Shown piece by piece: positions 4,042 through 63,846 of a stretch of 64,000 nucleotides of DNA. Below the pieces are notes generated by a model, which was given only the letters and a program-made list of their open reading frames with translations, was not told the DNA's origin and searched no databases. This DNA is from Thermodesulfobacteriota bacterium. Lineage in GTDB: Bacteria; Desulfobacterota; BSN033; UBA1163. The position numbers were made by a program, and so were the translations under genes. The DNA is taken from positions 160-64,159 of the forward strand of contig JBEKWN010000006.1 of assembly GCA_049513055.1 (NCBI GenBank), given 5' to 3'. Position 1 is the stretch's first letter. The number at the start of each line of letters is the position of its first letter.

Positions 4042-4440
4042 ATGCAAATTGCCGGGCTAAGCGGATTGCGTGAGCTTTCAAAAATCGAATATAGAGCGGT
4101 TACGCGTCAATTTAAAGGAGAGAGGATCTACCATGCTTTAGATGTTGATTTTTTAGATTACCATTGGAAACTCATGATAAGCGTCGTCAATGGTAAGGTC
4201 TATAAAATTGCGGCATACATAGAAACACAGGATAGGGATTTGGCTCACGTCGCTGCAATGACAACATTTTTATATTGTAAGGGACAAATAGGAGAACCAA
4301 CCAAACAGCGAGGTGAAATGTTTATCTGGGATACGATTGACGGCGATGTTGCACTTCAAACAACACAGATAAAAGAAGAATTTGGAATCAACTTATTTTT
4401 AACCTCTCATGCCGTTCGTCACTTCACCCGATTACGGTAA
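4042..4440 (+). CDS. Hypothetical protein (132 aa), no recognisable domain
   Basis: Intact ORF directly after the tandem repeat; no family recognised by eye. Confidence 0.45.
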   Translation: MQIAGLSGLRELSKIEYRAVTRQFKGERIYHALDVDFLDYHWKLMISVVNGKVYKIAAYIETQDRDLAHVAAMTTFLYCKGQIGEPTKQRGEMFIWDTIDGDVALQTTQIKEEFGINLFLTSHAVRHFTRLR

Positions 4441-4500: not shown

Positions 4501-4560
4501 GGCGCCAAACCCCGATTTTAAAATCGGGGTTGAAAGCGCCGCTCAGTATCAACCCTGAGC
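4501..4560. other. Cluster of stable hairpins (10-bp perfect palindrome ccccgatttt/aaaatcgggg nested in ggcgcc...gcgcc; then gctcag...ctgagc)
   Basis: Direct reading; lies in a 325-bp gap between convergent genes. Confidence 0.5.
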
Positions 4561-4765: not shown

Positions 4766-5996
4766 CTATTCTTTGCCCATTCTTTTCAAAATTTCATTTC
4801 CAGCCAATATCCCGCTGATCGAAGCTTGCATCAATCCTCGCGTAATCCCAGCTCCATCACCGATCAAAAAGAGATTCTGTATGTCCGTTTCTAAGGCTGG
4901 TGAGATTTTTACCCGATTGGTATAGAACTTTACTTCCACCCCATAAAGGAGAGTATGCCTGGAAAAAATGCCGGGAGTTATTCGATCCAATGCCTCGAGC
5001 ATCTCGATGATGCTCTTCAAATGTCGATAGGGAATGACAAAACTGAGGTCACCTGGAGTGGCTGAAATCAGAGTAGGTTGAGTAATGCATCGATTGATCC
5101 GATCGGGTGTGGATCGCCTTCCATCGAGTAGATCTCCCAATCTTTGAATGATCACTCCATTCCCAAGAAGATTAGCCAGTCTCGCAATATATTTACCATA
5201 GCCAATGGGGTCGTTGAAGGGTTCGGTAAAGGTGTTGGAAACGAGTATGGCAAAATTGGTATTCTCAGTTCTTTTATTAGCGTAACTATGGCCATTGACT
5301 GTGACAATCTCATCAGCCAGGAGCTTCCACACGAACTCCTATATCGACTGGACTTGGCATAGAAGGGATTCCCAAACGCTGTACTTCGTTCTTGATCCAT
5401 TGAGCTCCCACACGGCCGGGACCACAAATCACATAGTCGGCGCTCACCTGGGTCCCATTCTCAAGCAATACCCCAAGGACCTTTCCATTCCGAACGAGAA
5501 TCTCTTTCACTGGGGTATTAAAGAAGATGTCCACTTTTTTCTCCAAGGCATTTCGGATCTTCTTCAAGAGAGGCACGCAGTTTTCAGTTCCCAGATGTCT
5601 GATTTCCATGGGAATGAATTCTAATCCTGCCAGTTTCGCTTCCTGGTATAGGGCTTCAGTTTTATCAGAGGATTGACCGAAGACCTCTTTCGGGGCACCA
5701 AATGAGAGGTAGATCTCATCAGCTTTTCTGAGGAGATTCACCAATTGGGGCTGGGGAATAAAGTCGCCTAAGAACCCGCCAACCCTTGGTGAAAGAGTCA
5801 GCTTACCATCACTGAAGGCACCTGCTCCTCCCCAGCCACACAGGAGTTCCATTCCCCTCCCCCTTTTCCTCTCATGGATATCCTTTCCTCTCTCAAAAAT
5901 CGCCATATCTTCCATGCCACCCTTCGACAAGGTGAGAGCGGCAAAAATGGCTGATGGACCGGCCCCAACAATCACCACTTGATATCGCTTTTTCAT
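4766..5996 (-). pseudogene. FAD-dependent oxidoreductase (COG2509-like, GxGxxG + G.GGAG.FSDGKL motif) interrupted by a frameshift near 5313-5332
   Basis: ORF 5313-5996 (MKKRYQVVIVGAGPSAIFAAL...GWGGAGAFSDGKLTL) and ORF 4766-5332 are consecutive parts of one protein in different frames with a 20-nt overlap. Confidence 0.6.
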
Positions 5997-15630: not shown

Positions 15631-16644
15631 ATGAAGAAGACAAGAAAAATTAAGAAAATATTAAAAAGTAAACCAACCCTTGAAGGAGCGGGTGTCCATT
15701 TAAAGAGGGCATTCGGATTTTACCAGGTCCCTTTGCTCGACCCCTTTCTCCTTCTCGATGATTTCCATTCTGATCATCCCGATGACTATATCAGAGGTTT
15801 TCCATGGCACCCTCATCGAGGGATCGAGACGATTACCTACGTGCTTTATGGCAAGGTTGAACATGGAGACAGTATGGGGAACAAGGGGATCACTTCTTCA
15901 GGAGATGTCCAATGGATGACGTCTGGGAGCGGGATCATTCACCAGGAAATGCCCAAAGGGCAGAAGGATGGATTGATGTGGGGCTTCCAGCTCTGGGCAA
16001 ATCTCCCAGCTTCTCATAAAATGATGGACCCCCGCTATCGGGATGTCAAAAGTAAACAAATCCCGGAAGTGACATTGGATCATGGGATAAAGGTAAAAAT
16101 TATTTGTGGGGAAGTAAACCCCGTTAGAAATTCCAGCGGGGCATTAAACCCTGACGGAATTATTCTAAAATCTAACCCCGCTGCAGAGCAGCGGGGCATT
16201 ATTTCTAACGGGGTAAACGGTGTGAAGGGTCCGGTGCAGGACATTGTTATCGATCCTGAGTATTTGGATATTACTGTTCCGTCAAAATCTAATTTTACAC
16301 GCCCTGTGAAAAGGGGCCATACAGTCTTCGCCTATGTGATAGAAGGGAAGGGATACTTTGATCCCGGACGGGACTCGTACGCTTATGAGGTGGAAGGGGC
16401 GAATTATTTCGATTTTAAGAGAGATTGCTTCATGGGTTCGGAGACTTTGATCCTATTCGATGATGGGGATGAAGTGGTGATTTCCACTGAGGAGAAACCG
16501 GTAAGATTTCTTCTCATATCAGGAAAACCCATTGGAGAACCAGTGGCCTGGTATGGGCCTATCGTGATGAACACCCAGGAGGAGTTGAGGATCGCCTTTG
16601 AAGAATATCAAAATGGAACTTTCATCAAATATAAAAAGAAGTAA
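15631..16644 (+). CDS. Pirin family protein carrying a 35-aa in-frame insert (16114-16218)
   Basis: HPHRGIETITYVLYG...DVQWMTSGSGIIHQE pirin motifs; start set at MKKTRK after GGAGGG RBS. Confidence 0.8.
   Translation: MKKTRKIKKILKSKPTLEGAGVHLKRAFGFYQVPLLDPFLLLDDFHSDHPDDYIRGFPWHPHRGIETITYVLYGKVEHGDSMGNKGITSSGDVQWMTSGSGIIHQEMPKGQKDGLMWGFQLWANLPASHKMMDPRYRDVKSKQIPEVTLDHGIKVKIICGEVNPVRNSSGALNPDGIILKSNPAAEQRGIISNGVNGVKGPVQDIVIDPEYLDITVPSKSNFTRPVKRGHTVFAYVIEGKGYFDPGRDSYAYEVEGANYFDFKRDCFMGSETLILFDDGDEVVISTEEKPVRFLLISGKPIGEPVAWYGPIVMNTQEELRIAFEEYQNGTFIKYKKK
16114..16218. repeat. 105-bp palindromic element (terminal inverted repeats gtaaaccccgttagaaat / atttctaacggggtaaac; internal cagcggggcatt x2 and aaccccgctg) inserted in-frame in the pirin gene
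   Basis: Direct reading; 105 = 35 codons, same frame as pirin, encodes VNPVRNSSGALNPDGIILKSNPAAEQRGIISNGVN between conserved pirin segments. Confidence 0.7.
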
Positions 16645-50353: not shown

Positions 50354-52006
50354 ATGAATCAACGATTTTCCAAAATGAGTCCTCAGCCATGGGCCCAGTT
50401 CGCCCTTCTCCTGGGACTCTGTTTCGTCATTTATTTTGTAAATCTGGGTCAATGGGACCTCTGGAGTCCAGATGAGCCCCGTTACGCTGAGGTTTCAAGA
50501 GAGATGGTGAACGGGGGGGACTGGATTCTCATGCATCGCAATGGGGAACTATACACCGATAAGCCCCCTCTCTTTTTCTGGTTCAATGGCATTTCATCCT
50601 TCCTCTGGCAAGGAGTTACCCCGTTTTCAGTAAGATTCCCCTCTGCCCTCTTTGGGACCTTGACGGTCCTTCTCACTTTTTTCATTGGGAGGAGGCTCTA
50701 TTCATCACGCACAGGGTTCCTCTCTGGGCTCATTTTGGCGACGAGTTTTCAATTCGCCTATCTCTCTACACGGGGCAATATTGATACCACCCTAACCTTC
50801 TTTACCACGGCTTCTATACTTTGTTTTATCCAATGGTATCAAAGCAACCAAGAGGGAGAGATTTCCCTAAAGGGGATGAAGGGTCTCTCTTTTTATGGAT
50901 ACTATGTGGGCATGGCTTTGGCCACCTTAGCCAAGGGACCTGTTGGATTTATCCTTCCCTTATTGGTCACTCTTCTTTTTCTTTTGGTTCAGAAGGATTG
51001 GAAAGGGATCAAGGCCATTAGGCTCCTTCCTGGGATGCTCCTGTTTTTGGCCATCGTCCTGTCATGGTATCTTCCTGCCGTTTTAATGGGAGGAAAAGAT
51101 TACCTCAACGCCACCCTGTTGCACCATTCTTTTGATCGCTTTGCAAAAGGATCAGCCCATATTCGGCCCATCTATTACTATCTCTATCAGTTTCCGCCTA
51201 ACTTTTTGCCCTGGATCATTTTTCTCCCTGCTGCCATGGCTTATGGTTTTTCTAGAGCGATGATAGCAAAGAGAAAAGAATTTCTTTTTCTAATGATCTG
51301 GTTCATTTGTATCTTTGGATTTTTTACTCTGTCTAAGGGAAAAAGAGGACTTTACTTTTTACCTCTCTTCCCGGCTGTATCGCTGATGGTCGGGAGGCTT
51401 TGGGAAGATTTTGTCTCTTTTTCGATGAAACATTTTCGGCATGAATGGATCACGATTCCCCTTTATGGATTGATGGGAGTGATTTGTGTGGCCGGTGTTG
51501 CCCTGCCATGGGTGATTTCGGCAAAACTTCCTTCTTACTTTTCCTATAGCCTCCCTGTTGCCTTTCTCTTGGTCGGAGTGAGCATTGGTCTATTTGTGCT
51601 TAACCGGTTTAAGTATTACGGAGCCATTTTTTTACTTCTCATCGGGATGATGGCAGGAGGATTTTTCTATGCATTGAGGGTTGTGTTCCCCCTTGTGAAT
51701 CCCTACAAATCATCCCGTTTCATTTGTCAGGAGATCACTACACGAATGCAACCCGGTGAGAAATTAGCCATCTATGGAGATTTTGAACCGGGTCCTTTTA
51801 ATTTTTATACAGGAATCGTTCCCATCCCGGTGTTGGAGGAGGAAGAGGCCCTCTTGCATTTTTTAAGGTCTCCGGAGAGGGGCTTCTGTCTGCTTAAATC
51901 CAGAGATTTTTTAAAATTTCAGAGCATAGAAGGTAGACCAGAAGTTCAATTGATCGTTCGACGTAGGATAGGCGATGGTGATTTTGTCTTGATTTCCAAC
52001 CGATAA
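50354..52006 (+). CDS. GT-C ArnT/PMT_2-like paralog 4 (full length)
   Basis: DEPRYAEVSREM...DKPPLFFW. Confidence 0.8.
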   Translation: MNQRFSKMSPQPWAQFALLLGLCFVIYFVNLGQWDLWSPDEPRYAEVSREMVNGGDWILMHRNGELYTDKPPLFFWFNGISSFLWQGVTPFSVRFPSALFGTLTVLLTFFIGRRLYSSRTGFLSGLILATSFQFAYLSTRGNIDTTLTFFTTASILCFIQWYQSNQEGEISLKGMKGLSFYGYYVGMALATLAKGPVGFILPLLVTLLFLLVQKDWKGIKAIRLLPGMLLFLAIVLSWYLPAVLMGGKDYLNATLLHHSFDRFAKGSAHIRPIYYYLYQFPPNFLPWIIFLPAAMAYGFSRAMIAKRKEFLFLMIWFICIFGFFTLSKGKRGLYFLPLFPAVSLMVGRLWEDFVSFSMKHFRHEWITIPLYGLMGVICVAGVALPWVISAKLPSYFSYSLPVAFLLVGVSIGLFVLNRFKYYGAIFLLLIGMMAGGFFYALRVVFPLVNPYKSSRFICQEITTRMQPGEKLAIYGDFEPGPFNFYTGIVPIPVLEEEEALLHFLRSPERGFCLLKSRDFLKFQSIEGRPEVQLIVRRRIGDGDFVLISNR

Positions 52007-61482: not shown

Positions 61483-62688
61483 ATGACAAAAGAGGAAGTT
61501 CTTCAATCCCTTGTGGTTCAAACGGAATCGAAGTTGGTGATGGTGGTGATTGATGGGATTGGTGGATTGCCGGTCCGGGGGAAGACAGAGCTGGAAGCAG
61601 CAAAGACTCCGAACCTTGATCGAGTCACTTCAAAAGCCATCTGTGGATTGATCGATCCTGTCTCCTATGGGATCACCCCGGGAAGCGGTCCTTCCCATTT
61701 AGCCCTCTTTGGTTATGACCCGTTTCGATATGAAATTGGAAGAGGGGTGATGGAGGCATTGGGGATCGATATCCCACTGGCCAAGGACGATTTGTCAGCC
61801 AGAGGCAATTTTGCAACGATCGATGAAAAAGGAATCGTTGTCGATCGAAGAGCGGGAAGAATTCCGACCGAAAAAAACCGAGAGATTTGTGAGTTTCTCG
61901 GAAATAAAATCAAAGAGGTCGAAGGGGTTCGCATTTCTATCTATCCAGGGAAAGAGCATCGGTTCGTCCTGGTTTTTCGAGGAGAAGGATTGAGAGATGA
62001 TCTGACGGATGCCGATCCTCAGAAGGATGGGCTTAAGGCAAAAGGGACAGAAGGGCTTTCTCAGGAGGCTCGAAGGACGGCTGAGATCGTCAACCTTTAT
62101 TTGAAGAAGGCGACCGAAGTCCTCAAACCCTTTCATCCTGTCAATACGATCCTGCTCAGAGGATTTTCAAAGATTCCGCATATTCCAACCATGTCAGAGA
62201 GATTTAAACTCCGGCCCGCTGCCATTGCCACCTACCCAATGTATCGCGGACTGGCGAGGTTGGTTGGAATGGAGATTTTAAAGACAGGAGAGACCCTCCA
62301 GGAAGAAGTGGAGACCCTGAAGAAATATTTTGACCGAAATGATTTCTTTTATATTCATTTCAAAAAGCCTGATATGGCTGGAGAAGACGGAAATTTTAAA
62401 ATGAAGGTTAAAGCCATTGAGGAGATAGATCGAATTCTGCCCTTTATTTTCAAACTGAAACCTGATGTCTTAGTCATCACAGGAGACCATTCTACTCCCA
62501 CTTTCTTAAAATCTCACAGTTGGCATCCCAACCCCATTCTACTGTTTTCAAACTATGTCCGGCCAGACAGGATCCGGCGCTTCACAGAGAGAGATTGTCA
62601 GAGAGGACAATTGGGCAGGTTTCCAGCCATGGATGTCATTCCCTTGATGTTAGCCAACGGATTAAAATTAAAGAAATTTGGAGCTTAA
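61483..62688 (+). CDS. apgM: Cofactor-independent phosphoglycerate mutase, archaeal type
   Basis: MVVIDGIGG...TPNLD N-terminus and length 401 aa typical of ApgM. Confidence 0.8.
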   Translation: MTKEEVLQSLVVQTESKLVMVVIDGIGGLPVRGKTELEAAKTPNLDRVTSKAICGLIDPVSYGITPGSGPSHLALFGYDPFRYEIGRGVMEALGIDIPLAKDDLSARGNFATIDEKGIVVDRRAGRIPTEKNREICEFLGNKIKEVEGVRISIYPGKEHRFVLVFRGEGLRDDLTDADPQKDGLKAKGTEGLSQEARRTAEIVNLYLKKATEVLKPFHPVNTILLRGFSKIPHIPTMSERFKLRPAAIATYPMYRGLARLVGMEILKTGETLQEEVETLKKYFDRNDFFYIHFKKPDMAGEDGNFKMKVKAIEEIDRILPFIFKLKPDVLVITGDHSTPTFLKSHSWHPNPILLFSNYVRPDRIRRFTERDCQRGQLGRFPAMDVIPLMLANGLKLKKFGA

Positions 62689-62690
62689 GT

Positions 62691-62848
62691 GGTTGAAATT
62701 CCAATCACCAAATTCCAAATCCCAAATAAATTCCAATTCCCCAATGTTCAAATAACATAAATATTTATTAGTTTTTTGAATTTTGGTCATTGATATTTTG
62801 GTAATTATTTGATGCTTGGATTTTGGAATTTGGTTATTGAGTTTGGAA
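62691..62848. repeat. AT-rich ~150-bp imperfect palindrome (arms caccaaattccaaatcccaa / ttggattttggaatttggtta around aaatattt centre) rich in TTCCAA/TTGGAA units
   Basis: Direct reading. Confidence 0.6.
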
Positions 62849-62898: not shown

Positions 62899-63846
62899 AT
62901 GAAGACATATCGTTACCTCTACGGTCCCGTTCCTTCAAGAAGATTGGGGAGATCGCTCGGGATTGACCTCGTTCCCCATAAAATTTGCACCTATGACTGT
63001 ATCTACTGCCAAATTGGAAACACCACGGATAAAACTCTTATAAGAAAAGAATATGTTCCTGTAAAAAAAGTTCTGGAAGAAGTGAGTCGCTTTCTTAAGG
63101 AAGAGACTTCCTCCATCGATCATCTCTCCCTTTCTGGGTCTGGAGAACCAACCCTCCATTCTCAAATCCGTTCAGTGATTGAAGGAATTAAAATCATCAC
63201 CTCCATACCAATCGCTGTTCTCACCAATGGATCTTTATTCTATGAAGAAGAAGTGAGAAAAGATCTCCTCGGTGCAGATATTATTCTCCCTTCGTTAGAT
63301 GCTGTATCGTCAGAAGTTTTTATGATAATCAATCGCCCTTGCTCGGGGATTTCTATTGAAAAGGTGACTGAAGGAATGGTCGAATTTAGAAAGGTTTACA
63401 AGGGTCAGATTTGGCTGGAGATACTATTCTGTAAGGGGGTGAACGACGGCAAAGAAGAACTTTTGAAGATGAAAAAAGCCATTGATCGAATCCAACCCGA
63501 TCGTATCCACCTTAACACGGTCGTTCGACCTCCTTCTGAAAAATGGGCAACCCCTTTGAATCAAAAAGAAATAGAAAAAATCAGAGACTTTTTCGGCGAG
63601 AAGGCGGAGATCATTTCCGAATTCGATCGTCATCCATCATCGGTCTTGGAGAGGGATATTAAAGAAGAGATATTAAAGATTCTGAGAAGAAGACCTCTTT
63701 CTCTATCTGATCTCTCCAAAGGCATGGGAATTCCACAAAATGAACTGGACCAATATGTCAAGCCTCTGACCCGAGAAGGAAAGATTCAAACCAGAATTTT
63801 TGGTGGTTCGATTTACTATGAAATAGGTAAAAATCAAAGAAACTAA
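62899..63846 (+). CDS. Radical SAM protein (CTYDCIYC cluster) with C-terminal putative DNA/RNA-binding-like domain
   Basis: YGPVPSRRLGRSLGIDL...CTYDCIYC N-terminus; SGSGEPTL. Confidence 0.75.
   Translation: MKTYRYLYGPVPSRRLGRSLGIDLVPHKICTYDCIYCQIGNTTDKTLIRKEYVPVKKVLEEVSRFLKEETSSIDHLSLSGSGEPTLHSQIRSVIEGIKIITSIPIAVLTNGSLFYEEEVRKDLLGADIILPSLDAVSSEVFMIINRPCSGISIEKVTEGMVEFRKVYKGQIWLEILFCKGVNDGKEELLKMKKAIDRIQPDRIHLNTVVRPPSEKWATPLNQKEIEKIRDFFGEKAEIISEFDRHPSSVLERDIKEEILKILRRRPLSLSDLSKGMGIPQNELDQYVKPLTREGKIQTRIFGGSIYYEIGKNQRN

What the first reader, a model, noticed from the sequence alone, without database searches (positions are those of the whole stretch)
16114..16218. 105-bp palindromic element inserted in-frame into the pirin gene (RPE/Correia-like behaviour)
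The element has 18-bp terminal inverted repeats (gtaaaccccgttagaaat / atttctaacggggtaaac), an internal duplicated cagcggggcatt and a hairpin aaccccgctg-cagag-cagcggggc. It is exactly 35 codons long. It adds VNPVRNSSGALNPDGIILKSNPAAEQRGIISNGVN between the conserved KVKIICGEV and KGPVQDIVIDPEYLD segments without breaking the frame. In-frame palindromic-element insertions into ORFs are known from Rickettsia (RPEs) but are rare elsewhere. The AAACCCCG/CGGGGTT core also appears in the hairpin at 4507-4532.
Basis: seen in the sequence. Interest (0 to 1): 0.7.

Follow-up and report, generated by a model that had tools for sequence, protein, structure and literature searches.

The report
Small mobile palindrome inside pirin gene
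A 95-bp palindromic mobile DNA element (a MITE) has jumped in frame into a pirin gene, adding a 33-residue loop; it has more than 100 other insertion sites, about a tenth of them also in frame in genes, and its end sequences recur in several bacterial phyla.

Summary
Pirin (15631-16644, +) carries exactly 99 extra bases compared with its closest orthologs. These are a 95-bp element (16119-16213) plus a duplicated TAAA (16115-16118 and 16214-16217).

The element has a perfect 14-bp inverted repeat, two internal hairpins and a 13-nt internal direct repeat. It is not an ancestral pirin segment: about 120 close homologs and the 150 best of 14,233 representative homologs all lack it.

The same element sits at 119 other distinct sites in sediment and groundwater metagenomes. 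Thirteen copies lie in frame inside ORFs, in the same frame and orientation as here; seven hosts were checked with Pfam, among them QueA, EtfB and a molybdopterin oxidoreductase. An EtfB allele 97% identical in DNA has the empty site, so the element moved recently.

Its termini (YCCCGTTAGAAAT) flank unrelated 70-125-bp interiors in Patescibacteria, Planctomycetota, Omnitrophota, Thermodesulfobacteriota and others. There, half the copies sit exactly on start codons that the duplication regenerates.

I found no RNA-level selection, no Rfam family, no literature match and no transposase.

Verdict: a new MITE family that behaves like the Rickettsia palindromic elements (RPEs). What moves the element is unknown.

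The parts
15631..16644 (+). Pirin gene (337 aa; Pfam Pirin at residues 22-122, Pirin_C at 211-331) that hosts the insertion
   Evidence: ORF list; Pfam; 100% identical protein P0001/P0121 in public data, named a pirin family protein of a Thermodesulfobacteriota MAG
16115..16118 (+). Left copy of the duplicated target TAAA (with G16114 it reads GTAAA)
   Evidence: Filled versus empty comparison with orthologs L120 and L121; flank statistics in 136 superfamily copies; target logo
16119..16213 (+). The 95-bp non-autonomous palindromic element (MITE); it differs from the family consensus at 2 nt
   Evidence: 99-nt gap in orthologs minus the 4-nt duplication; consensus of 89 canonical copies; 119 other sites
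16119..16131 (+). Left terminal inverted repeat CCCCGTTAGAAAT
   Evidence: pair I1; conserved across phyla
16201..16213 (+). Right terminal inverted repeat ATTTCTAACGGGG
   Evidence: pair I1
16129..16161 (+). Internal imperfect hairpin A (AATTCCAGCGGGG / CCCTGACGGAATT). It is perfect in the family consensus; two substitutions degrade it here.
   Evidence: pair I4, 77%; consensus fold
16176..16196 (+). Internal hairpin B (CCCCGCTGC-AGA-GCAGCGGGG), 9 bp perfect
   Evidence: pair I7
16134..16146 (+). First copy of the 13-nt direct repeat CAGCGGGGCATTA (3' arm of a possible left-end hairpin)
   Evidence: family D4
16189..16201 (+). Second copy of the direct repeat CAGCGGGGCATTA (3' arm of hairpin B plus 5 nt)
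   Evidence: family D4
16214..16217 (+). Right copy of the duplicated target TAAA
16080..16244 (-). 54-aa reverse-strand ORF, which exists only because one reverse frame of the element is open. Probably not a gene.
   Evidence: The same effect on the forward frame yields 166 short 'hypothetical proteins' in public gene calls.

Best explanation

Anatomy. It is a 95-bp non-coding DNA with 13-14-bp terminal inverted repeats (YCCCGTTAGAAAT) and internal hairpins.

The insertion event. The element inserted into the pirin gene at ...GAA G|TAAA|C GGT... and duplicated TAAA. Element plus duplication is 99 bp, and one forward frame has no stop codon. The gene therefore still encodes a full-length bicupin, now carrying a 33-residue Asn/Pro/Gly/Ser-rich loop between the strand KVKIICGE and the strand YLDITV.

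The family. It prefers the target (A)G-TAAA in one orientation. It reaches roughly 3-4 further copies per 100 kb in the DNA around known copies. It is or recently was mobile.

Which copies survive. Copies persist where they do no harm: in intergenic DNA, at stop codons that the duplication preserves, and in frame in surface loops.

Shown: the insertion, the duplication, the multiple copies, the presence/absence polymorphism and the in-frame hosts.

Inferred: that a transposase supplied in trans moves it (probably a DDE enzyme that makes a 4-5-bp staggered cut), that the longer pirin is made and works, and that the copy has no function of its own.
For: Insertion and target duplication:
- Orthologous pirin DNA 88-90% identical has one GTGAAC or GTGGAC where the window has GTAAAC-[93 nt]-GTAAAC. 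The gap is exactly 99 nt.
- A second pair gives the same result. EtfB is filled in L197 and empty in L244/L245 at 97% nucleotide identity, again with a 99-nt gap and GTAAA present once versus twice.
- In 136 copies that share the termini, flank positions 2-5 are identical left and right in 113, 99, 102 and 113 cases. The terminal Y and R are complementary in 130 of 136.
- The central dinucleotide is a direct repeat only in 87 copies and an inverted repeat only in 7.
- Nine delta-family copies have matched non-consensus flanks such as TGAA/TGAA, TAGA/TAGA and CAAA/CAAA.

Many copies:
- 119 distinct sites in one capped metagenome scan.
- 13 family copies in species-representative genomes, up to 3 in one MAG.
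- Mean pairwise identity 91%.

In-frame behaviour:
- 13 of 120 copies are spanned by ORFs of at least 50 codons on each side, all in the pirin frame and orientation.
- Seven hosts tested have Pfam domains. In four (molybdopterin oxidoreductase, QueA, FMN reductase, AAA_22) the hit continues on both sides of the insert; EtfB matches in two stretches.

Not ancestral.

Tolerated in the protein: the AlphaFold2 model has mean pLDDT 90.5, with the insert at about 50-70 and flanking strands at 95 or more. The insert maps after the VISGE strand of human pirin 1J1L, and metal-binding-domain homology is intact.

No sign of RNA function:
- No Rfam family.
- In the internal stems, G.U mismatches (53) are about as common as A.C (59), and compensatory pairs are almost absent.
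- Beyond the 12-bp terminal repeat, pairing is at the random level.
Against: - No autonomous partner or transposase was found in 1.6 Mb of flanking DNA, in plasmids or phages, or more than marginally in viral contigs.
- The target is non-palindromic, yet more than 93% of copies sit in one orientation relative to it. Only the left flank shows extra conservation. This is unusual for an element with symmetric ends.
- The left flank varies more than the right: 14 cases versus 2.
- Copies are co-oriented with neighbouring genes, 20 versus 6.
- At two orthologous sites the element is 96-98% identical while the flanks are only about 70% identical.
- Expression of the longer pirin was not tested.
- Only one copy lies in the 64-kb window, and the copy number in this genome is unknown.
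Confidence: 0.85

Rival explanations
1. It is the same mobile palindrome, but a strand-specific single-strand DNA enzyme moves it, not a DDE transposase. Candidates are an HUH/Y1 transposase of the IS200/IS605 or RAYT type, or a recombinase that recognises the folded hairpin. On this view the left GTAAA is the recognised target and the right GTAAA is the element's own end, so there is no true target duplication.
For: - Fixed orientation relative to a non-palindromic target, with conservation at -7/-6 on the left side only.
- The right flank is almost invariant while the left varies, 14 versus 2.
- Two similar hairpin arms lie in direct orientation (CAGCGGGGCATTA twice).
- Copies are co-oriented with genes. 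IS200/IS605 elements show this through lagging-strand targeting (my own knowledge).
- Filled/empty pairs fit this model equally well.
Against: - The perfect symmetric 13-14-bp terminal inverted repeats are the only part conserved across phyla. IS200/IS605 ends are asymmetric and REPINs make no duplication (my own knowledge).
- Matched variant flanks occur in 9 delta-family copies and in many Patescibacteria copies (ATGGAT/ATGGAT, GTGAGC/GTGAGC, ACATAT/ACATAT). An element-borne right end would not produce them.
- No Y1 or RAYT gene was seen near copies, though this was a weak test.
Confidence: 0.1
2. The element is a functional module, not junk. It could be a structured RNA or protein-binding site that regulates the host gene, or a peptide insert recruited for pirin function.
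For: - The termini are conserved across phyla.
- In Patescibacteria and others, 67 of 138 copies sit exactly at start codons. A -10-like box precedes the left copy in 30% of 60 tested copies, versus 4% at random positions.
- Interior polarity follows gene direction in 20 of 21 copies.
- At two orthologous sites the element is better conserved than its flanks.
- The insertion is retained in all 13 members of the pirin cluster.
Against: - Within the family, G.U and A.C mismatches are equally common and there is essentially no compensatory change.
- No stem extends beyond the terminal repeats.
- No Rfam match.
- The same peptide is inserted into unrelated enzymes.
- The insert is predicted to be disordered.
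- Within the pirin cluster the insert accumulates indels: +1 aa, +11 aa and a frameshifted allele.
- Empty alleles of the EtfB site are common: 400 member sequences versus 11 filled.
Confidence: 0.04
3. The segment is an ancestral pirin region lost elsewhere, or an assembly artefact.
For: None beyond the open reading frame.
Against: - It is absent from all close homologs and from the 150 best of 14,233 representative homologs.
- The same DNA occurs at more than 119 unrelated sites.
- The filled pirin allele is found in 13 protein records, one of them on 26 contigs.
Confidence: 0.01

Closest known systems
Rickettsia palindromic elements (RPEs)
   Same: Both are small palindromic repeats of about 100-150 bp that insert in frame into unrelated housekeeping genes and add a peptide thought to be compatible with the fold. 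The review PMC10969869 describes this for RPEs. Here the same 33-residue peptide sits in pirin, QueA, EtfB, a NuoG-like oxidoreductase, an ABC ATPase, a radical SAM enzyme and a flavodoxin-like protein.
   Different: The host phylum differs: Thermodesulfobacteriota and others, with no Rickettsia among the hits listed by record title. The ends are clear 13-14-bp inverted repeats with a 4-bp target duplication and a strong (A)GTAAA target. Only about 11-16% of copies are intragenic. Sequence similarity to RPE families was not tested.
Correia elements of Neisseria (a classic bacterial MITE)
   Same: Size is similar (about 100-155 bp). Both have terminal inverted repeats and a target duplication, occur in many copies near or within genes, and are transcribed into mRNAs as hairpins (my own knowledge, and PMC10969869).
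   Different: Correia elements duplicate TA and have 26-bp repeats of unrelated sequence (my own knowledge). They are confined to one genus, whereas these termini occur in several phyla. Promoter or RNase III effects were not tested here.
ERIC/IRU, QMITE1 of Coxiella and other intragenic MITEs
   Same: In-frame fusions of a MITE-borne open frame with host ORFs are described as 'not unusual' (PMC10969869; PMC5896051 was listed and not read).
   Different: The sequences, sizes and hosts are unrelated. None is reported with termini shared across phyla or with insertions that regenerate start codons. Literature searches with the terminal sequence found nothing relevant.
REP/REPIN elements mobilised by RAYT transposases
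   Same: Both are hairpin-forming repeats of about 100 bp built from inverted short motifs and present in many copies.
   Different: REPINs are extragenic, make no target duplication and are lineage-specific (my own knowledge). Here a duplication is shown, and intragenic copies are common.
Integron attC sites
   Same: Both are imperfect palindromes of variable length (57-141 bp for attC) in which only the base of the stem is conserved. The GTTAGA/TCTAAC core resembles the attC R'/R'' boxes GTTRRRY/RYYYAAC (my own knowledge).
   Different: The order is reversed. Here it is 5'-GTTAGA...TCTAAC-3' on both strands, whereas attC is 5'-RYYYAAC...GTTRRRY-3'. The copies are dispersed singly, not in cassette arrays.

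Membership tests
MITE (non-autonomous DNA transposon) | Small size (under about 300 bp) and no transposase coding capacity | tested here: met
   95 bp here; 70-125 bp across the superfamily
MITE (non-autonomous DNA transposon) | Terminal inverted repeats | tested here: met
   Perfect 14-bp inverted repeat; the same termini in more than 230 copies
MITE (non-autonomous DNA transposon) | Target-site duplication, shown by comparing filled and empty sites | tested here: met
   Two filled/empty pairs, each with a 99-nt gap and a duplicated (G)TAAA; flank statistics
MITE (non-autonomous DNA transposon) | Many dispersed copies at non-homologous sites | tested here: met
   119 distinct sites in a capped scan; 3-4 extra copies per 100 kb around known copies. 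The copy number in this genome itself was not measurable: there is 1 copy in 64 kb.
MITE (non-autonomous DNA transposon) | A related autonomous insertion sequence with the same ends that supplies the transposase | tested here: inconclusive
   None found in 1.6 Mb of flanks, or in plasmids, phages or viral contigs. Whole genomes and ISfinder were not available.
Rickettsia palindromic elements (RPE-1 to RPE-10) | Sequence membership in an RPE family, and occurrence in Rickettsia | not tested
   No RPE sequences were compared. The hosts listed by record title are not Rickettsia. Only the behaviour (in-frame insertion) matches.
Correia element | TA duplication and the 26-bp Correia inverted repeat | tested here: not met
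   The duplication is 4 bp (TAAA, or TGAA and others), and the repeat sequence is different. The Correia features are from my own knowledge.
REP/REPIN | Extragenic location, no target duplication, linked RAYT gene | tested here: not met
   A duplication is present. Copies are often intragenic. RAYT linkage could not be tested.
IS200/IS605-derived palindrome-associated elements | Asymmetric ends with subterminal hairpins, insertion 3' of a fixed tetra- or pentanucleotide, no duplication | tested here: inconclusive
   For: a fixed oriented target and direct-repeat hairpin arms. Against: symmetric inverted repeats and matched variant flanks.
Curated structured RNA family (Rfam) | A match at the family's gathering score | tested here: not met
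   No match in the window or in 16 loci. The best sub-threshold hit scores 18.9 bits against a cut-off of 49.5.
Integron attC | 5'-RYYYAAC ... GTTRRRY-3' order, and arrangement in cassette arrays | tested here: not met
   The order is reversed on both strands, and copies are solitary.

The most novel reading that the evidence does not exclude
The pirin insert belongs to an undescribed superfamily of mobile hairpins that spans phyla. All members share the ends YCCCGTTAGAAAT.

The unknown enzyme that moves them inserts in an oriented, strand-aware way at gene boundaries. Because the element ends in R and the duplication is T-N-N-A, an insertion at A|TGAA rebuilds a start codon (ATG or GTG) downstream. 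It also keeps the upstream stop codon (TGA or TAA).

In Patescibacteria, where many genes appear to be leaderless, the element would then form the 5' end of the mRNA of housekeeping genes such as ribosomal proteins, RF1, HPF and tRNA synthetases. It may have been recruited there as a leader or expression module.
Probability: 0.2. Interest if true: 0.75.

Novelty: new member of a known kind. Interest (0 to 1): 0.5.

Why it matters
The finding shows that Rickettsia-style 'selfish DNA inside proteins' also operates in free-living anaerobic sediment bacteria. It comes with a clean, datable example: filled and empty alleles at 97% DNA identity.

It has a practical consequence for annotation. Copies of this element create 33-residue inserts in real enzymes. 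They also generate at least 166 spurious 40-72-aa 'hypothetical proteins' in public gene calls.

The shared termini across Patescibacteria, Planctomycetota, Omnitrophota, Thermodesulfobacteriota and others point to a widely exchanged, still unidentified mobilising enzyme. The placement of copies exactly on start and stop codons in very compact genomes offers a way to test how mobile DNA survives, or is put to use, where there is almost no spare DNA.

Tried and rejected
- Ancestral pirin segment: rejected.
- Known RNA family: nothing found in the window, in 16 loci, or in a permissive scan of the element.
- RNA-structure selection: not seen. G.U 53 versus A.C 59 and almost no compensatory pairs in 78 unique family copies. 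No stem beyond the 12-bp terminal repeat in 67 gene-oriented copies.
- Integron attC: I considered it because of the GTTAGA/TCTAAC core and rejected it on box order.
- Link to the hairpin at 4508-4531: rejected.
- Autonomous partner: I looked for long-range end pairs enclosing ORFs and clustered 1,020 flanking ORFs. Both gave only ordinary housekeeping genes.
- Plasmid and phage BLAST: no match.
- Viral contig scan: 3 loci, uninformative.
- Literature searches with 10-mers of the terminal sequence: only chance hits. A search combining the MITE term with names of candidate phyla listed no paper that holds the MITE term.
- Peptide search for a census of in-frame hosts: it returned only short ORF calls on element copies, and not even the pirin, so it is not a census.
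- First AlphaFold2 run with a shallow alignment: unusable, pLDDT 55.8. A diverse alignment fixed this.
- The Chunjie MITE paper (PMC2516098) is not held.
Full report
**1. The observation**

The window at 16114-16218 reads gtaaaccccgttagaaattccagcggggcattaaaccctgacggaattattctaaaatctaaccccgctgcagagcagcggggcattatttctaacggggtaaac. It lies inside a 337-aa ORF, 15631-16644 on the + strand. That ORF has Pfam Pirin at residues 22-122 and Pirin_C at 211-331.

The repeat finder gives three features:
- a perfect 14-bp inverted repeat at 16118-16131 and 16201-16214;
- a 13-nt direct repeat, CAGCGGGGCATTA, at 16134 and 16189;
- a perfect 9-bp hairpin at 16176-16196.

The inverted repeat is the only perfect one of 14 bp or more, with arms less than 300 bp apart, in the 64-kb window. 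The region folds at -54.7 kcal/mol, z = -4.7 against shuffles. No second copy is present in the window.

**2. It is an insertion, and its limits**

The 120 closest homologs are 287-310 aa long, except one identical record. Ten of them, 83-92% identical outside the insert, lack exactly 33 residues after ...KVKIICGE.

The best 150 of 14,233 representative homologs almost all match in two stretches that break at query residues about 161-167.

At the DNA level, two orthologous genes 88-90% identical show a single clean 99-nt gap (L120 and L121). They read GGAGAA-GTGAAC-GGTGTG and GGAGAA-GTGGAC-GGTGTG. The window reads GGGGAA-GTAAAC-[93 nt]-GTAAAC-GGTGTG.

I place the element at 16119-16213 (95 bp). 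The duplicated TAAA lies at 16115-16118 and 16214-16217, for the reasons in section 4.

**3. It is a repeat family**

Thirteen of these copies, from Thermodesulfobacteriota/'delta proteobacterium'/Syntrophaceae MAGs, match the window's element along its whole length.

A metagenome scan with a pattern specific to this 'delta family' again hit the limit. It returned 120 copies at 119 distinct flanking contexts.
- 89 copies have the canonical length.
- Mean pairwise identity is 91%.
- The window copy differs from the consensus at two positions.
- Around known copies there are 3-4 further copies per 100 kb.

**4. Ends and target**

I analysed 136 copies that share the core ends.
- The four bases at flank positions 2-5 are the same on the left and right in 113, 99, 102 and 113 cases.
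- Positions 1 and 6 agree in only 64 and 55 cases.
- The base next to CCCG on the left (Y) is complementary to the base next to CGGG on the right (R) in 130 of 136 copies.
- The central dinucleotide is a direct repeat only in 87 copies and an inverted repeat only in 7.

This fits an element Y-CCCG...CGGG-R with a 4-bp target duplication.

In the delta family the target is strongly (A)G-TAAA: A at -7 in 64%, G at -6 in 87%, and TAAA in more than 83-98% per position. The right flank shows no preference beyond the duplication. Nine copies have matched non-consensus flanks such as TGAA/TGAA, TAGA/TAGA, TGAG/TGAG, TCAA/TCAA and CAAA/CAAA. This is what duplication of off-consensus targets predicts.

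A second direct test used EtfB. The filled gene (L197) has a relative 98% identical in protein and 97% in DNA with an empty site: AAAGAA-GTAAAG-GTGATT versus AAAGAA-GTAAAC-[93]-GTAAAA-GTGATT. The gap is again 99 nt. The empty allele stands for 400 member sequences and the filled one for 11. The element has therefore moved recently.

**5. Behaviour in genes**

Element plus duplication is 99 bp. One of the three forward frames and one of the three reverse frames are open (read from the sequence).

Of 120 delta-family copies, 13 are spanned by ORFs with at least 50 codons on each side. All 13 are in the same orientation and frame as in pirin.

Seven hosts were checked with Pfam:
- a NuoG-like molybdopterin oxidoreductase, QueA, an FMN-reductase/flavodoxin-like protein and an AAA_22 ATPase, where the Pfam hit continues on both sides of the insert;
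- EtfB, which matches the ETF domain in two stretches;
- an ABC ATPase and a radical SAM protein, where the recognised domain lies on one side of the insert only.

Each carries the peptide VNPVRNSSGALNPAGIILKSNPAAEQRGIISNGV(K/N).

In further copies the upstream ORF ends at the TAA of the left duplication (about 18 copies) or at the TAG inside the conserved end (about 12). Forty-five copies have no ORF of at least 50 codons running into them.

This is the behaviour described for Rickettsia palindromic elements. A 2024 review calls in-frame MITE fusions 'not unusual' (PMC10969869).

**6. Effect on pirin**

With a diverse alignment, AlphaFold2 gives mean pLDDT 90.5 and pTM 0.87. Blocks of ten residues score 95-98 on both sides of the insert. 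The insert scores 70, 53, 50 and 67, and is below 50 at residues 170-173 and 187-195. It lies between strands 154-159 and 210-216.

Against human pirin (1J1L), the match runs through the N-terminal metal-binding cupin up to ...VISGE and resumes at LYLDF.

I infer a tolerated surface loop. Expression and activity are untested.

Within the 13-member cluster of filled pirins, the insert shows one substitution hot spot (D/A), a +1-aa variant, a +11-aa variant and a frameshifted truncated allele. The rest of the protein shows only scattered substitutions. This is weak evidence for relaxed constraint on the insert.

**7. No evidence for an RNA or other function of the copy**

- There is no Rfam match at gathering score in the window or in 16 loci. 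A permissive scan gives only sub-threshold noise.
- In 78 unique canonical copies, stem mismatches are G.U 53 versus A.C 59, and true compensatory pairs are almost absent. An RNA under selection on one strand should favour G.U.
- In the wider superfamily, pairing beyond the 12-bp ends is at the random level, about 33%.

What is conserved is therefore a sequence-specific terminal site, as expected for a protein-recognised transposon end.

**8. The wider superfamily (beyond the finding)**

The 119 genome loci come from the following groups, by record title:
- many Patescibacteria lineages, including Saccharibacteria, Paceibacteria, Doudnabacteria, Nomurabacteria, Kazan and a closed Campbellbacteria genome;
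- Planctomycetota, Omnitrophota, Thermodesulfobacteriota and Nitrospirae;
- KSB1, Stahlbacteria and a few 'Gammaproteobacteria' MAGs.

Only the ends are shared. Interiors are unrelated and 40-110 nt long. The three bases just inside the core differ between subfamilies but stay complementary: AAT/ATT, AGC/GCT, GGT/ACC, CCT/AGG.

In 67 of 138 copies, a long ORF starts exactly at the RTG formed by the element's terminal R plus the duplicated TG. Sixty-two of these ORFs have at least 100 codons. From their N-terminal sequences they look like L1, L3, RF1, HPF (five times) and tRNA synthetases, among others; this is my reading and was not tested. Many upstream genes end at the TGA or TAA inside the left duplication. 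The duplication thus preserves both neighbours.

A -10-like hexamer ends 4-9 nt upstream of the left ATG copy in 30% of 60 such copies. The figure is 4% at random positions and 0% before the right copy. Shine-Dalgarno-like motifs are rare at both. I infer that many host genes are leaderless and that the element becomes the 5' end of their mRNA.

Whether this placement reflects targeting, survival of only harmless insertions in very compact genomes, or recruitment is open. I favour survival plus a target preference for R-T-R-A-A-Y.

**9. What does not fit neatly**

- The target is non-palindromic, yet more than 93% of delta copies have one orientation relative to it.
- Flank variation is lopsided: 14 sites with a left variant and right TAAA, against 2 with the reverse.
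  - Nine of those left variants raise complementarity to the right copy.
  - One pair of near-identical contigs differs only by TAAA to TTTA (L166/L203).
  - I read this as template-switch 'correction' of a quasi-palindrome. The mechanism is known (my own knowledge), but applying it here is an inference.
- Copies are co-oriented with neighbouring genes, 20 versus 6 for co-directional pairs, and 13 to 0 for in-frame copies. One possible cause is selection. In the reverse orientation the RNA would carry the strong stem followed by UUUA, which resembles a terminator, and the reverse-frame peptide is hydrophobic and contains Cys. Both points are inferences.
- At two orthologous sites the element is 96-98% identical while the flanks are about 70% identical. 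This could be repeated insertion at a hot spot, gene conversion or constraint.
- A Patescibacteria class with left flank ACTTGT has no direct repeat.

These points keep a strand-specific single-strand DNA mechanism alive as a rival for how the element is moved.

**10. What moves it**

Unknown. No long element with these ends and no recurrent transposase-like ORF was found in 1.6 Mb of flanks. Plasmid and phage collections give no match. IMG/VR gives three loci only. A 4-5-bp duplication and ends starting CC recall the IS1380 family, but that is from memory and untested.

**11. Comparison and verdict**

The element meets every testable defining feature of a MITE except a known autonomous partner. 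It works like an RPE but is not shown to be one. It fails the Correia, REPIN and attC definitions.

I found no description of these ends in the open literature or in Rfam. It is a new family of a known kind. Interest is moderate. The cross-phylum ends and the placement at gene boundaries are the parts most worth following up.

Noticed in passing
window 4508-4531: A perfect 24-nt palindrome, AACCCCGATTTTAAAATCGGGGTT, nested in CGGCGCC...GCGCCG. It lies between convergent ORFs 4042-4440 (+) and 4766-5332 (-). It looks like a terminator and is not a copy of the element.
   Followed up: partly
window 62702-62839: An AT-rich inverted repeat with 24-nt arms (88% complementary, 90 nt apart). It lies in the intergenic gap between ORFs 61483-62688 and 62899-63846. 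It may be another small palindromic element.
   Followed up: no
window 51751-51793: A short hairpin, AACCCGGTGAGAAAT...ATTTTGAACCGGGT, whose arms loosely resemble the element ends (2-3 mismatches). Probably chance.
   Followed up: no
P0126, P0122, P0124 (pirin alleles of the same cluster): Variants within the insert: 11 extra residues (AAGPEGLWARR) in the loop of hairpin B, one extra Asn, and a frameshift that ends at the TAA of the right duplication.
   Followed up: partly
P0133-P0252: At least 166 public 'hypothetical proteins' of 40-72 aa are simply the open frame of copies of this element.
   Followed up: partly
L166:4125-4229 versus L203 (reverse strand): These contigs are nearly identical (one other difference in 120 flanking nt) and hold the same in-frame copy. 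The left flank is GTAAAC in one and GTTTAC in the other. The AA-to-TT change makes the flanks perfectly complementary.
   Followed up: partly
L185/L232 and L141/L214: These are orthologous insertion sites in diverged genes. The flanks are about 70% identical, but the elements are 96-98% identical. One pair shares a rare 103-nt length variant.
   Followed up: no
L029, L065, L068, L093, L109: In five different Patescibacteria genomes, an element with these ends sits directly on the start codon of a gene whose N-terminus looks like ribosome hibernation factor (hpf; not tested). The interiors are unrelated.
   Followed up: no
L012, L020, L053, L055, L059, L087: A class of copies has left flank ACTTGT (ACCTGT in one), right flank ATG..., and no direct repeat. 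In five of the six (L012 lacks upstream sequence) a -10-like box lies just upstream of the left flank. As RNA, the left flank could pair with the start codon through G.U pairs.
   Followed up: partly
L008:7675-7894, L077:908-995, L102:7796-7889, L045:6201-6286: Tandem or nested copies: elements that share a flank, or a second pair of related ends inside the first.
   Followed up: no
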